Positions 21,890 through 33,380 of a stretch of DNA of 35,246 bases are shown piece after piece. The notes beneath the pieces were generated by a model. The model made no database searches, had not been told where the DNA came from, and was given only the letters and a program-made list of their open reading frames with translations. The stretch is taken from positions 1 through 35,246 of IMG/VR virus record IMGVR_UViG_3300030207_001559. One strand, given 5' to 3'. Source of the DNA: a virus (taxonomy: Duplodnaviria; Caudoviricetes). Positions within the stretch are counted from its first letter, which is position 1. The number at the start of each line of letters is the position of its first letter. The position numbers and the translations under genes were made by a program.

Positions 21890-22500
21890 AATAGAAAGTA
21901 ACAAGTAACTATTTCTATTCTATTTAAATATATTTTCTAGTAATAAGTCATTAGTTAATACCCTCCTGTATAAAGAAAATAGCAACTAGTTACTTGTTAC
22001 TGTTACTAGTAACTAGATACTAAACACCTCTTTTTAGAAAAATTAAATTTCTACAGGTATACTCCCCTCCAATACACATTCCACAAGACATACCCCCTGT
22101 TACTTTAAGTTATGGCTAACCTGTACCGTAACTGTAAACAGTTACTAGGTTAGCTAGATACTATTTTTACGTGTGCGTGACGGGAAACTTCAGCAACTCT
22201 CAAAATACTAGTATCTATTTACGTGATACTACTATCATTATTATTGATGAATCGCTGTTATGCATATATTAACTTTTTATAGTGGTGTCATATGTATATA
22301 TAGGTTGTTTTATTATTACCTCATATAACTAGCTTCTAAGGTATCTATATTAGGTATCTATCTGCTAGCTATTTATTTAATCTTCAGGCACAAATTAAAT
22401 TAATTTAAGCAATTTTTGATTAATTTTCTAGGCACGACTCAGGCACGAACTAGGTGTTTTCACCTGGAAAAATTAAGGTATAATCTCTGTATCTAGTCGT
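21890..22500. other. Non-coding control region (candidate origin and/or packaging site) with iterated motifs
   Basis: About 670 bp without ORFs; clustered GTAAC/GTTAC repeats, six GTATCTA/TAGATAC copies, three AGGCAC copies, palindrome at 22115-22154. Confidence 0.45.
22457..22484 (+). promoter_or_regulatory. Candidate early promoter
   Basis: TATAAT at 22479-22484 with weak -35 (TTTTCA), followed by a 5' stem-loop (TCTAGTCG...CGACAATAGA) and RBS AAGGAG. Confidence 0.5.
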
Positions 22501-22919: not shown

Positions 22920-22948
22920 TAGACCTGAGCAAGTCTAAAAACTGCTCA
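22920..22948 (+). ncRNA. Intergenic H-type pseudoknot motif, copy 1
   Basis: TAGAC-C-TGAGCA-A-GTCTA-AAAAC-TGCTCA. Confidence 0.7.
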
Positions 22949-23271: not shown

Positions 23272-23300
23272 ATAACCTGAGCAAGTTTTAAAACTGCTCA
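23272..23300 (+). ncRNA. Intergenic H-type pseudoknot motif, copy 2
   Basis: ATAAC-C-TGAGCA-A-GTTTT-AAAAC-TGCTCA. Confidence 0.65.
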
Positions 23301-23743: not shown

Positions 23744-23773
23744 ATATTCCTGAGTAAGAATATAAACTGCTCA
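23744..23773 (+). ncRNA. Intergenic H-type pseudoknot motif, copy 3
   Basis: ATATTC-C-TGAGTA-A-GAATAT-AAAC-TGCTCA. Confidence 0.7.
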
Positions 23774-29521: not shown

Positions 29522-29598
29522 CTAGTAACTAGTAACTAACAACTTATTTCTTATATTAAATTAAAAAAATAGTAACTAGTTACTAGTAACAGTAACAA
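29522..29598. repeat. GTAAC iteron cluster flanking an AT-rich core
   Basis: CTAGTAACTAGTAACTAAC, ~30 bp of A/T-rich sequence, then TAGTAACTAGTTACTAGTAACAGTAACAA. Confidence 0.7.
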
Positions 29599-29613: not shown

Positions 29614-29823
29614 ATGGATTTTGAAAGATTAGAGATTAAGTGTAGTAAGTGTGACCACACTACTGAGTTGATGGGATTAGTAGAATCAGCCCATAAACTT
29701 AAGGTACACCCTGAATCATTAAGGAGATTTGTCAGGTATGGTCAGGTTAATTCTATGGCTATAGAGCGTGGCAGATACTTTACTGAAGCAGATTTAGAAG
29801 CATATATAAATGAAGGAGAATAA
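29614..29823 (+). CDS. Excisionase/MerR-like HTH DNA-binding protein with N-terminal CxxC
   Basis: 'LVESAHKLKVHPESLRRFVRYGQV...GRYFTEADLEAYI' (HTH_17-like). Confidence 0.75.
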   Translation: MDFERLEIKCSKCDHTTELMGLVESAHKLKVHPESLRRFVRYGQVNSMAIERGRYFTEADLEAYINEGE

Positions 29824-30417
29824 ATGACATTACAATCAGATACCCCAAGAACCGAACTTATAGAAGTAATTAGCGTACAGCCTGCTATGTCGAGAGATGG
29901 AATGACACCACAATATATAGTGGGATATACATGGCAATACAGCCAATACCCGTCTAACTTTTACATTACTCAATCAGAAGCACCTGATGTAATTGCTAAC
30001 TTTACTGGTAAGTTTGAAGCAGTTGTAAAGGTAAGGCAACAGTGGTTAAAGAAGAACAAAGATGGTAGCTACAAGACAGGAGACAAGATGTATGACTATC
30101 AGTGGGAAGTATTGGCATGGGAAAGTTCAGATACGCCTGTATCAGCCCCACCTGTTGCTGAACCCTCACCTACTATAGAGCAATCTTTAGGTGTAGCCCC
30201 TGCACCACAGGCTCGACCAACTGATGAGAACCAAATGAGAATCATGAGACAGTCAGCACTTAAATGTGCATCATGGTTATCTGTTCCAACTGTAGAAAGT
30301 ATGGGAATAGAAACATCAGCTAATAAAAGCATAGAGATTGCTGAAAAGTTTATGGAGTACTTTATAACTGGGCAAGTGCCTAGTGAGTTAGATGAATTAT
30401 TAGAGGAGATAGAATAA
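29824..30417 (+). CDS. Putative ssDNA-binding / recombination-associated protein
   Basis: Beta-rich N-terminus, Pro-rich linker, 'IMRQSALKCA' helix, acidic tail; first gene after the HTH gene in the replication module. Confidence 0.4.
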   Translation: MTLQSDTPRTELIEVISVQPAMSRDGMTPQYIVGYTWQYSQYPSNFYITQSEAPDVIANFTGKFEAVVKVRQQWLKKNKDGSYKTGDKMYDYQWEVLAWESSDTPVSAPPVAEPSPTIEQSLGVAPAPQARPTDENQMRIMRQSALKCASWLSVPTVESMGIETSANKSIEIAEKFMEYFITGQVPSELDELLEEIE

Positions 30418-30635
30418 TGAAGATTACTCTTGAGTTAAATACAGAGCAGTACATAAGTTTAATGAGTTTAACTAGTCCAATAAAAGGAGACACAGGTAAG
30501 TATTTATCTAAACCAATAACTTCTAAAACTGCTCCAATAATAGAAGAAATTAACAAACAACTTTTAAATCAATACAACAAACATGTAGAAGAAATAAATA
30601 AGGAGATAGAGGAGAATGAAACTGCGAACACGTGA
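30417..30635 (+). CDS. Hypothetical protein
   Basis: 72 aa, TAATG-coupled. Confidence 0.65.
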   Translation: MKITLELNTEQYISLMSLTSPIKGDTGKYLSKPITSKTAPIIEEINKQLLNQYNKHVEEINKEIEENETANT

Positions 30636-30936
30636 TGGAAGAGTTGTCGGAGATTTAGACGGCAACGTAGCAATCATTAAAAAGAGTGAAAAGAAACACA
30701 AACTAATGAGACCTGAAGCGTGGTGCTTTGATATTGAACTAATAAATAGCATTGTTGAAAACGGTGCTACTACTATTAGAGTAGAAACTACAGATACTGG
30801 GAAGAAATTCCTGGTGTCTGTGGAGTTCTTTGTTGACAAAGCATTTAAACTAGATAGAGGGTACAACAAACAATTAGGATTACCAATAGTGTACTGGGAT
30901 ACAGGAGAGCCTGCAGAACAGTTAAGTCTATTATAG
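30616..30936 (+). CDS. Hypothetical protein
   Basis: 106 aa, RBS GAGGAG; ends in QLSLL, a beta-clamp-binding-like motif. Confidence 0.7.
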   Translation: MKLRTRDGRVVGDLDGNVAIIKKSEKKHKLMRPEAWCFDIELINSIVENGATTIRVETTDTGKKFLVSVEFFVDKAFKLDRGYNKQLGLPIVYWDTGEPAEQLSLL

Positions 30937-30943
30937 TTAAACC

Positions 30944-31231
30944 TAGCTACAAGGGTTTGAGTAAACCATCAGTCGAAGCAACAAGTTCTTCACGCAAACG
31001 CTAAAGGTTTTTTCTGAATTATTTTCCTTGTTTGCGAATAGTCAACATTGTGTAACATCTAGATTTGAATTAACTTTCATTTGTTACGACTTAAAAGCAG
31101 CAGAGTTGCGGCACTGAAACTTACTAACTTTAGCGGGTTGGAGTAAGTTTAGAAACAGTGTACTGACTGCATCCTTTCAGAGCCCGATACTCTTACGATT
31201 TTGTTGGTTATAAATACAGTAAGTGTAGCTA
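30944..31231 (+). ncRNA. Large (~290 nt) multi-helix structured RNA candidate
   Basis: Ends pair (TAGCTACA/TGTAGCTA) and enclose many helices; fills an ORF-free gap in an otherwise packed operon. Strand inferred from context. Confidence 0.65.
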
Positions 31232-31238
31232 TAAAAAT

Positions 31239-31266
31239 TGACCTGAGTATGTCATTAAACTACTCA
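31239..31266 (+). ncRNA. Intergenic H-type pseudoknot motif, copy 4
   Basis: TGAC-C-TGAGTA-T-GTCA-TTAAAC-TACTCA. Confidence 0.7.
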
Positions 31267-31285
31267 CTAATTAAAAGGAGAATAA

Positions 31286-31549
31286 ATGAATACTAAATGG
31301 GACAGGAAAGATAAGTGGGCAACTAGCCTAACTCCTGCACAGAAATATGAAAACCAATCAAGGCAAACAGTTATCCTTACAAACTTTACTGAAAACCATA
31401 CTCGTATGCAGTCAAAGATTGTAGAGTTTATGATAAGCAACTTTCCTGAAGTTAAAGTTATAGTTGAAGAAAAGTATGGCAAGAAAAATAAAGTATTTAC
31501 TTATGATAAAGCAGGAAATAAAAAGGAGATGAAGGATGAGCAAAACTGA
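31286..31549 (+). CDS. Hypothetical protein
   Basis: 87 aa, RBS AAGGAG. Confidence 0.7.
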   Translation: MNTKWDRKDKWATSLTPAQKYENQSRQTVILTNFTENHTRMQSKIVEFMISNFPEVKVIVEEKYGKKNKVFTYDKAGNKKEMKDEQN

Positions 31550-31736
31550 AGAAGAAAAAATATTAGAATTAAATCAATTTATCCATGAAGTAGGACTTGA
31601 AAAATATTGTGGGTATCTTAGAGCCACAGATATTGTTTTCGGTGTAAACAAAAGAAAGTTACCTCGCTATATAGATAAGTCTCTAGAGAACTACAAAACC
31701 TACTGTAGAGAATTAAACATCCCTGAAACTCAATAA
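31536..31736 (+). CDS. Hypothetical protein
   Basis: 66 aa. Confidence 0.65.
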   Translation: MSKTEEEKILELNQFIHEVGLEKYCGYLRATDIVFGVNKRKLPRYIDKSLENYKTYCRELNIPETQ

Positions 31737-31755
31737 CAAGATAAAGGAGTAAAAA

Positions 31756-32037
31756 ATGAACTGTGATGATTTAACTTGCAAACAATTACAATCGTGCAAG
31801 TGGGGAGATACAAGGGTGGCTACTGTGTGGTGTGGTGATATGTATGCACGAGAACGAGAAACTAGCATAAGAAGACAAGAAGAGTTAATGGAAATAGAAA
31901 ACCTTAAGAAACGAGTTATGGAACTGAGGGGAGAACTAGCTGTATATTATGCTGAGTCTAGTGCTGTAAAATCAGTTTCAGTACCTACAACAACAAAACA
32001 AATGTCACCAAAAGAAAGGAGAAATTTATATAGATGA
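31756..32037 (+). CDS. Hypothetical protein (Cys-rich N-terminus, coiled coil)
   Basis: 93 aa, RBS AAGGAG. Confidence 0.65.
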   Translation: MNCDDLTCKQLQSCKWGDTRVATVWCGDMYARERETSIRRQEELMEIENLKKRVMELRGELAVYYAESSAVKSVSVPTTTKQMSPKERRNLYR

Positions 32038-33380
32038 GAGTAGAACAAACAGGAACAATAATAGATGTTTATGATGACGCTAATAAAGTTCACATAAAAG
32101 CAAGACGTATACGAGGAGTAAACATCAAAGGTGAGTTGGACATTTACTATCAATTAGATTTCAACGATAAGATAAGCCAACCAAAGCCACACAAAACTGA
32201 ATTGTCTTTTCTAAATGATGGGGCTAGAAAAAGATTAGCCGAAATACTAGATGACAAGACAGGTGGAGATAGACCTTGGGGTTCTATTATTGATGAAGCG
32301 TGTATTGCAATAGTAGAAAAACATAGGGCAGGCAATGATGAAATAGTAATGACCAAAGTAGACGGTCATTCATTCAGGTCATATCAACTAAAACCTTTTC
32401 TAAGAGAGGGAGTGCCTAACTTAATGTGGGCAAGTGGTGGTTCAGGTAAGAGTTACTTTGCAACACTAACTGCAATATTAGTAAGTAGAGGTATGGGTGC
32501 ATTAGGAATGACTCCTCGTAAAACTAATGTGTTGTACTTAGACTGGGAAGAGGAAGAGGACATTATGAAGAGTCGCATATACTCTTTGCAGAAAGGATTA
32601 GGCATAGAGAATCCTGAAGATGCTGAAGGGATAGTGTGGGAGAAAATGGTGGGTCCATTAGAAGATAGTATAGAAAAGTTATCTTCTGTAGTTTCTGAAC
32701 ATGACATTGGATACATAATTGTTGACAGTCTTAATCCTGCATTAGGTGGGAGAAGTATAGATTCAGAATCAGTAGAGAGTTTCTTCTTTGCATTGCGTTC
32801 TTTGAATGTAACTTCTTTGCTCATAGACCACGCTAACAAGGCAGGAGAGAGGAGTGGCAAGTTCGAGATATATGGAAGTGCCTTTAAATATGCTAGAGCC
32901 CGTAACGTCTACGAAATAAGTAAAGTACAAAACAACGAGTCAGATAAAGTTGAGGTTGTGTTCTATCACCGTAAGGCTAATGACAGTAAGTTCCAATCAT
33001 TAAAAGGATTTACTATTACTTTCGTAGAAGAAGATGTTTGGAATGCTGCTGAGGGGGAGTACGAAACTATGGTTGATAAAGTTATATTTGAGCAGACTGC
33101 TTTACCTGATATGGATGGGAAGCTACTGCAGAAGGTAGGGGTACTTCAACTAGCAGAAGAAATAGTGAGGGCTGTTGAGCCTGACCCTACTAACGGTACA
33201 AAAGAGATACATATAGAAGAACTAAAAACTAGAGTGTCTACATTAAAAGAAGAAGAGGTGTCAGCACCTGCACTGAAGAACATGATAGGTAACTCATCTG
33301 TTCTGTTGACAGACGGTGATATGGTATTATTGAAGGCAACAGCAATGCGACCAATGGAGGATATAGATGTCGAGTTCTAA
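32034..33380 (+). CDS. RecA-fold (AAA_25 / RepA-like) replicative helicase
   Basis: Walker A 'ASGGSGKS', 'VLYLDWEE', Walker B 'IIVDSL', 'LLIDHANK', 'YGSAF'. Confidence 0.85.
   Translation: MRVEQTGTIIDVYDDANKVHIKARRIRGVNIKGELDIYYQLDFNDKISQPKPHKTELSFLNDGARKRLAEILDDKTGGDRPWGSIIDEACIAIVEKHRAGNDEIVMTKVDGHSFRSYQLKPFLREGVPNLMWASGGSGKSYFATLTAILVSRGMGALGMTPRKTNVLYLDWEEEEDIMKSRIYSLQKGLGIENPEDAEGIVWEKMVGPLEDSIEKLSSVVSEHDIGYIIVDSLNPALGGRSIDSESVESFFFALRSLNVTSLLIDHANKAGERSGKFEIYGSAFKYARARNVYEISKVQNNESDKVEVVFYHRKANDSKFQSLKGFTITFVEEDVWNAAEGEYETMVDKVIFEQTALPDMDGKLLQKVGVLQLAEEIVRAVEPDPTNGTKEIHIEELKTRVSTLKEEEVSAPALKNMIGNSSVLLTDGDMVLLKATAMRPMEDIDVEF

What the first reader, a model, noticed from the sequence alone, without database searches (positions are those of the whole stretch)
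30944..31231. Unannotated ~290-nt multi-domain structured RNA inside the replication operon
Seen: a 349-bp gap (30937-31285) in an operon whose genes otherwise overlap or nearly abut. It is closed by TAGCTACA(30944-51)/TGTAGCTA(31224-31). Domain 1: AGTCG(30971)/CGACT(31087) encloses CGCAAAC..AAGG/CCTT-GTTTGCG (30993-31036) and TAACA..TGAA/TTCA..TGTTA (31053-31086). Domain 2: GCAG-CAG/CTG-A-CTGC, GCACTG/CAGTGT and AAACTTACT/AGTAAGTTT (31097-31170). A 3' hairpin CTTAC/GTAAG spans 31192-31223. AGCCC(G) at 31181-86 can pair either with GGGTT at 30953 (nested) or with CGGGTT at 31134 (pseudoknot). Pseudoknot copy 4 follows 7 nt later. I see no hallmark of tRNA, tmRNA, RNase P or group I/II introns, and no adjacent RT, TnpB or IscB. 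Inference: a possibly new phage large ncRNA, perhaps released from the transcript with help from the adjoining pseudoknot.
Basis: partly seen in the sequence, partly recalled or inferred. Interest (0 to 1): 0.85.

Follow-up and report, generated by a model that had tools for sequence, protein, structure and literature searches.

The report
New pseudoknotted RNA of marine phages
Several kinds of uncultured ocean phages carry the same knotted RNA fold (100-311 bases; 288 here) that matches no family in the Rfam RNA catalogue, and it likely works as a free-standing RNA that is predicted to grip the start signals of messenger RNAs.

Summary
The element is real, but folding energy does not show it (z -0.75); comparison does. 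It belongs to a family of 70 distinct sequences (113-311 nt, plus a 100-nt form) from marine phage contigs, with no Rfam match. All share a core: a three-way junction (P1, P2, P3) locked by a 5-7 bp pseudoknot between the strand after P2 and the loop of the 3' hairpin. The pseudoknot covaries freely (mean own-partner run 5.96 bp, 3.19 with other members' partners). The RNA is single-copy and accessory, lies beside unrelated genes, and often ends at a terminator (22 of 48), so it likely acts in trans. Two single-stranded motifs are enriched: (C/A)UCC (41 of 48) and UUUCAU (17 of 48), complementary to Shine-Dalgarno and start-codon sequences. Binding to translation starts is my best guess (about 35%), untested. 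It fails SRP Alu membership despite a similar junction.

The parts
30944..31231 (+). The structured RNA (288 nt), a long and divergent member of the family
   Evidence: Descriptor trained without the window finds this place alone in the window, 0 of 100 shuffles; relatives first reached through the neighbouring helicase
30944..30950 (+). P1, 5' strand (pairs with 31225-31231)
   Evidence: 4 of 4 junction-side pairs covary
30951..30952 (+). J1/2, NA with invariant A
   Evidence: TA 25, GA 13, AA 6, CA 4 of 48; the A was part of the search rule
30953..30957 (+). P2, 5' strand (pairs with 31181-31185)
   Evidence: Two near-invariant G-C pairs, third pair covaries; unchanged in close strains
30964..30970 (+). 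Pseudoknot, 5' strand (AACCA plus C30970; pairs with 31203-31209, one U-U mismatch)
   Evidence: Own-partner versus other-partner control; tree-aware test
30971..31091 (+). Variable domain 1 (expanded first inner hairpin), holding UUUCAU at 31075-31080
   Evidence: Length varies across the family; strain changes mostly at unpaired places; inner pairing uncertain
31097..31170 (+). Variable domain 2 (expanded second inner hairpin) with hypervariable tip 31127-31142
   Evidence: G31111>A turns a G-U into an A-U pair in 4 of 4 runs; indels in the tip in 3 of 3 DNA runs
31171..31177 (+). Single-stranded linker AUCCUUU, complementary to Shine-Dalgarno sequences
   Evidence: (C/A)UCC in the last 20 nt of the insert in 41 of 48, shuffles 6.4
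31181..31191 (+). P2 3' strand (31181-31185) and J2/3 (31186-31191, invariant A and U)
31192..31224 (+). P3 hairpin: P3a 31192-96/31219-23, P3b 31197-200/31213-16, CA bulge 31217-18, pseudoknot loop 31203-09, invariant U31224
   Evidence: 95.5% of cells paired, 5 of 10 pairs with double changes; the window itself has two double changes in P3b (A-U to U-A, C-G to U-A)
31225..31231 (+). P1, 3' strand
31239..31266 (+). Separate small H-type pseudoknot (fourth copy in the window); likely marks or shields a transcript boundary
   Evidence: Repeat family D6; about 8,800 viral stretches estimated; stem 1 of at least 3 bp in 129 of 142 copies
30616..30936 (+). Upstream gene, 106 aa, widespread family of unknown function; its stop lies 7 nt before P1
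   Evidence: No Pfam or PHROG match; 822 relatives at E<=0.001; not a fixed partner
31286..31549 (+). Downstream gene, 87 aa, unknown; absent or replaced in relatives
32034..33380 (+). AAA_25 helicase, the marker that led to the first relatives

Best explanation
This is a phage-encoded RNA with a covarying, pseudoknot-locked three-way junction that likely acts as a discrete molecule in trans, and is predicted to control translation by pairing with mRNA start regions. Shown: the core fold, its spread across unrelated marine phages, single-copy accessory presence, flanking terminators, and two enriched motifs. Inferred: the RNA is made from its own promoter in some phages and trimmed from the 3' end or the inside of an early/replication transcript in others (here between a stop codon and the small pseudoknot). 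The rigid core would give stability and position the variable hairpins. The UUUCAU loop would pair with AUGAAA-type start codons and the (C/A)UCC(U) linker with the GGAG of the Shine-Dalgarno sequence; their 5'-to-3' order fits antiparallel binding. The likely effect is to block or re-route initiation on host (or early phage) mRNAs.
For: Fold: 11 of 17 core pairs above every null value; best pair outside the structure E=7; 16 descriptor hits in 1.36 Mb, all known members. Strand: U-G wobble in 33 of 48 at one P3 pair. Discrete, trans-acting: 22 of 48 followed by a terminator and 3 more by a U run; in 7 of 48 the next gene belongs to one convergent family, so nothing lies downstream to regulate; TATAAT or TATACT 6-8 nt before P1, 61-106 nt after the previous gene, in L249, L254, L270, L227; neighbours unrelated; no protein family shared by all 21 carriers compared; carriers with different virion modules. 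Motifs: (C/A)UCC 41 of 48 versus 6.4 in shuffles, UUUCAU 17 of 48 versus 2.5; mean unpaired probability 0.78 (UUCAU) and 0.61 (UCC) against 0.48. A 162-nt contig in one marine RNA library lies wholly inside the RNA (30961-31127): a weak hint.
Against: No experiment. A phage's linker does not follow its own commonest Shine-Dalgarno type, and only 16% of 349 starts read AUGRRR. UUCAU is absent from 27 of 48 and (C/A)UCC from 7 of 48; in the window UUCAU is predicted mostly paired (0.28). The pairings are only 4-6 bp, and representatives are related, which inflates enrichment. About twenty near-invariant core bases suggest binding of a ligand or protein, or catalysis, which base-pairing regulation does not explain. 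Loose -10 boxes also turn up in 11 of 26 copies that abut a gene. The RNA-library contig has no control for DNA carry-over.
Confidence: 0.35

Rival explanations
1. A protein-binding decoy or scaffold: the folded core and U-rich loops titrate a host RNA-binding protein or a defence nuclease, in the manner of pseudoknot antitoxin mimics (recalled).
For: Accessory, single-copy, moves between unrelated phages like a counter-defence gene; invariant junction bases and CA bulge; no phage partner protein.
Against: Does not explain why the two enriched motifs match the two signals of a translation start; no tandem repeats as in type III antitoxins (one copy per record).
Confidence: 0.25
2. A cis-acting element: riboswitch, translational leader or self-cleaving/processing ribozyme for the neighbouring genes.
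For: Three-way junction plus loop pseudoknot is common in aptamers and ribozymes (recalled); 26 of 48 begin within 10 nt of a stop codon; an anti-SD-like linker could pair with the next gene's ribosome site.
Against: No common downstream function; terminator copies face convergent genes; some copies have their own promoter and terminator; no hammerhead CUGAnGA/GAAA core in the consensus (criteria from PMC10085705) and no Rfam ribozyme or riboswitch match.
Confidence: 0.15
3. An SRP-Alu-like RNA that docks on the ribosome's factor-binding site and slows elongation.
For: Same order of terminal helix, short helix and long helix, with an A in J1/2, an A two bases before the third helix and a U before P1', as for A12, A64 and U263 of junction IIIA (PMC4231752, Results read).
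Against: No SRP match at E<=10; pseudoknot joins other loops; UGU-like link in 6 of 48, helix-8 motif in 1 of 48; 4 SRP RNAs do not score with the family model.
Confidence: 0.1
4. A replication or packaging RNA (primer, origin activator, pRNA-like or self-assembling cage).
For: Often near replication genes (helicase, DNA polymerase, loader).
Against: Position varies, and related phages lack it: 0 of 8 unselected records at least 90% complete; found with two different virion modules.
Confidence: 0.08
5. Not a functional RNA: chance pairing or a DNA-level site.
For: Folding energy no better than shuffles; a sequence-only model without the window misses it.
Against: Covariation controls, structure-aware leave-one-out, conserved U-G wobble, terminators on the same strand.
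Confidence: 0.03

Closest known systems
Alu domain of large bacterial/archaeal SRP RNA (RF01854; PMC4231752)
   Same: Terminal helix closing a three-way junction; conserved A in J1/2, A near the third helix and U before the 3' strand; a 5-bp-scale loop pseudoknot; two inner hairpins in many members.
   Different: Here the pseudoknot joins the strand after P2 to the tip of P3, not the loops of the two inner hairpins; its sequence varies freely; no UGU link, no S domain, no Rfam match.
Large ornate RNAs of unknown function: GOLLD, ROOL, OLE, raiA, ARRPOF, manA, IMES (Rfam; PMC12286853, PMC5737381, PMC2864571 seen as listings only)
   Same: Structured, pseudoknotted, stand-alone RNAs, several in phages or marine samples.
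   Different: No match to any Rfam model; small core (about 85 nt) with a freely variable insert; no tRNA neighbours in the window.
C-rich-loop small RNAs that pair with Shine-Dalgarno sequences (RsaE, RNAIII, LhrC, 6C; recalled, not read)
   Same: Single-stranded UCC motif beside hairpins; promoter- or 3'-end-derived; ends at a terminator.
   Different: One UCC copy only, a second anti-start motif, a tertiary pseudoknotted core, phage-encoded; only a chance-level RsaA match (E=5.8).
Hammerhead ribozymes, permuted forms included (PMC10085705)
   Same: Three-way junction with a loop-loop contact.
   Different: No CUGAnGA or GAAA block; longer; single copy.

Membership tests
Large SRP RNA / Alu domain | Rfam SRP model match | tested here: not met
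   (E<=10 on 19 member loci)
Large SRP RNA / Alu domain | Loop-loop pseudoknot between helices 3 and 4 | tested here: not met
   Covarying pseudoknot joins the strand after P2 to the P3 loop; definition from PMC4231752
Large SRP RNA / Alu domain | UGU sequence between helices 3 and 4 | tested here: not met
   6 of 48 by a loose rule; the commonest link is UUAAA/UAAAA
Large SRP RNA / Alu domain | S domain with helix-8 motif | tested here: not met
   1 of 48 at 3 mismatches; the recalled pattern found 2 of 4 control SRPs
Large SRP RNA / Alu domain | Junction IIIA four-base platform (A12, G62, A64, U263) | tested here: inconclusive
   Three of four bases have invariant counterparts; the G is not conserved; 3D geometry not testable
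Large SRP RNA / Alu domain | Binds the ribosome and slows elongation | not testable with these tools
   Needs biochemistry
GOLLD/ROOL/OLE/raiA/ARRPOF/HEARO/6S/manA/IMES and other Rfam families | Match to the family covariance model | tested here: not met
   0 matches at E<=1 in the window; 7 chance-level matches to unrelated families, all far below cut-off, on 19 loci
tRNA / tmRNA | ARAGORN call | tested here: not met
Retron, DGR, omega RNA or other enzyme-partnered ncRNA | Adjacent RT, TnpB, IscB or other fixed partner | tested here: not met
   None among 47 of 47 window ORFs, 54 of 114 neighbour ORFs and 76 ORFs of other carriers scanned; no family shared by all carriers
Hammerhead ribozyme | CUGAnGA, GAAA and cleavage-site blocks | tested here: not met
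   Absent from the consensus; blocks as defined in PMC10085705
Self-cleaving ribozymes in general | Site-specific self-cleavage | not testable with these tools
   Needs in vitro transcription
Shine-Dalgarno-pairing small RNAs | Accessible C-rich motif | tested here: met
   41 of 48; unpaired probability 0.61 versus 0.48
Shine-Dalgarno-pairing small RNAs | Discrete transcript with its own ends | tested here: inconclusive
   Terminators and some promoters; one RNA-library contig without a control
Shine-Dalgarno-pairing small RNAs | Pairs with and regulates target mRNAs | tested here: inconclusive
   No match between linker and the phage's own Shine-Dalgarno type; host unknown

The most novel reading that the evidence does not exclude
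A new class of phage RNA that hijacks host translation with RNA alone: a pseudoknot-locked, SRP-Alu-like core docks on the ribosome while two single-stranded fingers copy the 16S anti-Shine-Dalgarno tail and the initiator anticodon, capturing mRNA start sites. The freely swappable insert would make it a natural programmable scaffold.
Probability: 0.12. Interest if true: 0.92.

Novelty: new variant of a known kind. Interest (0 to 1): 0.72.

Why it matters
It is an RNA family with a fold not in Rfam, exchanged between unrelated ocean phages, with about the strongest comparative support a new RNA can have without an experiment. A 100-nt natural minimal form makes probing, cleavage, binding and structure tests cheap. 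If the two motifs do bind start sites, it would be a phage RNA that steers host translation without a protein. A stable core that tolerates inserts of 16 to 240 nt could also serve as an RNA scaffold. It also shows that a folding z-score alone would have discarded a real RNA.

Tried and rejected
Folding z-scores, whole and in parts: uninformative. blastn of the RNA against cultured phages: 6 short hits, 5 of them on the small pseudoknot, none covering the RNA; the minimal member, and the helicase by tblastn, no match. Single-protein locus search with the upstream gene: nothing. Sequence-only leave-one-out model: missed the window, because its P3b carries double changes; the structure-aware test found it. 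GTDB pattern scan: 10 hits, none with a 5' half; their weak model scores follow from how they were fetched. The pattern covers only part of the family, so a cellular copy is not excluded. SRP origin: not supported. Fixed protein partner: none. Linker tracking the phage's own Shine-Dalgarno type: not seen. Host: not identified. More divergent copies in non-carriers: none by descriptor. RNA runs X21-X23 held next to none of the words: no evidence either way. Motif strings in papers: only unrelated primer hits.

Full report
Setting. The window is a whole 35,246-base virus record, about 90% complete. It is a tailed phage: terminase, capsid and a giant LPD38 protein on the minus strand, and early and replication genes on the plus strand. 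Runs that hold the region are labelled marine or seawater metagenomes. The host is unknown. The element fills the gap between a 106-aa gene (stop at 30936) and an 87-aa gene (start 31286), upstream of an AAA_25 helicase, RusA and a nuclease.

First checks. Folding energy is no better than shuffles (z -0.75; minus strand -0.65; 9 sub-regions). Rfam gives 0 matches at E<=1, ARAGORN none, and cultured phages only short hits. On these results alone the finding would fail.

Finding relatives. Both loci found with the helicase matched the 3' part of the element at the same place (nhmmer E about 2e-5, helped by the small pseudoknot). A helicase alignment gave 80 loci, and a profile found 10 distinct members. 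Patterns for the 3' hairpin then gave 120 viral loci (55 of 64 parts scanned), 86 metagenome loci, 12 more viral loci and 10 GTDB loci. A parser kept 70 distinct full-length sequences of 113-311 nt, the window's included. Dropped were 26 rows without a 5' half and 4 low-scoring rows; among the 26, L148 (three loci), L232 and the 100-nt L255 are members by eye, and L286 and L288 are cut by contig ends. No GTDB hit has a 5' half. Clustering at 75% identity left 48 representatives.

The fold. All members read: P1, NA, P2 (GG first), a few bases ending in A, pseudoknot strand, one or more variable hairpins, a linker, P2', a short joiner ending A-N-U, P3a (5 bp), GAAC, UU, pseudoknot partner, GAN, GUUH, a CA bulge, P3a', U, P1'. 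Several invariant letters were part of my search patterns, so their invariance is partly built in. The pseudoknot was not in any pattern. Its longest Watson-Crick run is 5.96 bp on average with the member's own loop, 3.19 with other members' loops (2,000 permutations: mean 3.25, maximum 3.69) and 2.81 with other parts of the same RNA. For P3, 95.5% of cells pair, 5 of 10 pairs show double changes, and 0 of 500 shuffles reach the covariation score. In a tree-aware test on 42 of 48 rows (6 dropped for unclear register, the window among them), 11 of 17 core pairs exceed every null value, and the best pair outside the structure has E=7; P1, P2 and pseudoknot registers were chosen for pairing, so one search is the fairer control. 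A U-G wobble in 33 of 48 fixes the plus strand as the RNA.

The window's copy. It is long and divergent: P3b carries two double changes (A-U to U-A, C-G to U-A) seen in no other representative. A sequence-only model built without it misses it. A structure-aware descriptor trained without it finds one place in the window, 31189-31224 with its 5' half, and 0 of 100 shuffled windows give such a hit. Its pseudoknot is 30964-30970 with 31203-31209. In close strains (three DNA runs, one RNA run) no listed change falls in P1, P2, P3 or the pseudoknot. Of 14 substitutions in the insert, 9 are at unpaired places in my model, 2 keep the pair (A-U to G-U, G-U to A-U), 1 comes with a deletion at its partner, and 2 lie in the indel-rich tip 31127-31142.

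Context. Of 48 representatives, 22 are followed by a terminator, 3 by a U run, 12 by the small pseudoknot and 11 by none of these; 26 start within 10 nt of a stop codon. L249, L254, L270 and L227 have TATAAT or TATACT 6-8 nt before P1 and lie 61-106 nt from the previous gene; three of these are related, and loose -10 boxes are common elsewhere (11 of 26 abutting copies). In 7 of 48 the next gene is a convergent one of a single family. Upstream genes include HTH, PD-(D/E)XK, VRR-NUC, DnaC-like, HhH/ERCC4, resolvase, RusA and PAPS reductase proteins; downstream genes include the helicase (10 of 48), DNA polymerase, DUF932, a cupin and a small terminase (54 and 29 of 114 ORFs scanned). Each carrier record has one copy. 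It is accessory: 6 of 50 helicase-related records, all six known beforehand, and 0 of the 8 that are at least 90% complete; 0 of 19 further helicase records. One contig shows the window's upstream gene followed directly by a ribosome site and start codon. Among 21 carriers and 7 non-carriers no protein family is common to all carriers, though many records are fragments. Carriers G056 and G060 have a portal/prohead-protease module unlike the window's clade, sharing 3 and 0 families with it. The small pseudoknot is a separate, widespread element.

Motifs outside the core. (C/A)UCC lies in the last 20 nt of the insert in 41 of 48 (shuffles 6.4, maximum 13), UUUCAU somewhere in the insert in 17 of 48 (2.5, maximum 8) and UUCAU in 21 of 48 (7.3). 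UUCAU occurs in different hairpins in different members and is mostly predicted unpaired (0.78 against 0.48). These are the complements of GGAG and AUGAAA, in the order that antiparallel pairing needs. Against this: the linker does not track each phage's own Shine-Dalgarno type, and AUGRRR makes up 16% of 349 starts.

Expression. One marine RNA library has a 162-nt contig wholly inside the RNA (30961-31127, depth 14.6) and a second contig on the upstream gene of another strain (depth 5.6). No control for DNA carry-over was obtained, so this is only a hint.

Mechanism. Shown: fold, spread, context, motifs. Inferred: a discrete, stable RNA acting in trans (about 75%), and pairing with translation starts as its job (35%). 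Rivals: protein or defence decoy (25%), cis element or ribozyme (15%), SRP-Alu-like ribosome binder (10%), replication or packaging RNA (8%).

Comparison with known RNAs. No Rfam family on 19 member loci at E<=10 beyond 7 chance matches. The junction recalls junction IIIA of the bacterial SRP Alu domain (PMC4231752; parts 2 and 3 of 6 read), but the defining pseudoknot, UGU link and S domain are not met. No hammerhead blocks (PMC10085705; outline, first third of Results and one section read, supplement searched). Literature searches showed no description of this family; most hits were seen as listings only. Fremin et al. 2023 (PMC10690425; passages read) mined IMG/VR for 8,495 motifs of 29-151 nt; the motif strings were absent from the 4 supplementary files I could search, but 2 zip files and 3 large files were unreadable, so part of this RNA may be listed there. 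The Minerva preprint (10.64898/2026.09.22.753630; passages only, supplements closed) describes a different phage RNA array. The C-rich small RNAs named above are recalled, not read. Earlier notes of this scan hold no look-alike sequence.

Verdict. A real, apparently undescribed family of phage RNAs with a well-supported fold and an untested function. Interest 0.72.

Noticed in passing
window 22922-22948, 23274-23300, 23747-23773, 31239-31266: Four copies of a 28-nt H-type pseudoknot; about 8,800 viral stretches hold the pattern, stem 1 covaries (129 of 142), and by eye some copies lie just before tRNA-like sequences or hammerhead-like CTGATGAG motifs. No Rfam match.
   Followed up: partly
window 21973-22022 and 29524-29598: A 29-nt inverted repeat pair (97%) built of TAGTAACTAGTTAC-type palindromic boxes, one set at the divergence between virion and early genes, one before the HTH gene at 29614: operator-like.
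   Followed up: no
window 30935, run X20 record 7: A related strain has the 106-aa gene followed directly by a ribosome site and start codon, without the RNA: an empty site or a rearranged order.
   Followed up: no
window 31531-31752 and 30417-30605: Close strains lack the 66-aa gene (220-base skip) and apparently the 72-aa gene: small genes come and go around the RNA.
   Followed up: no
L050, L214, L239, L244, L246, L256, L276 and others, 40-90 nt after the terminator: A second conserved non-coding stretch (CTCTATG-GGC-CACAG-CCC-like) follows the terminator in this group, before the convergent gene.
   Followed up: no
L255:1143-1242: Minimal natural member, 100 nt with one inner hairpin, followed by a strong terminator: best construct for experiments.
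   Followed up: partly
window 30788-30823: A 16-pair hairpin scored as terminator-like inside the 106-aa gene, 120 nt upstream of the RNA.
   Followed up: no
window 30616-30936: The 106-aa protein has 822 relatives at E<=0.001 yet no Pfam or PHROG family.
   Followed up: partly
L485 (G056), L486 (G057), L493 (G062), L498 (G067): Carriers also encode amidoligase/glutamine amidotransferase, ArdC anti-restriction, a PPDK-domain protein and adenylosuccinate synthetase.
   Followed up: no
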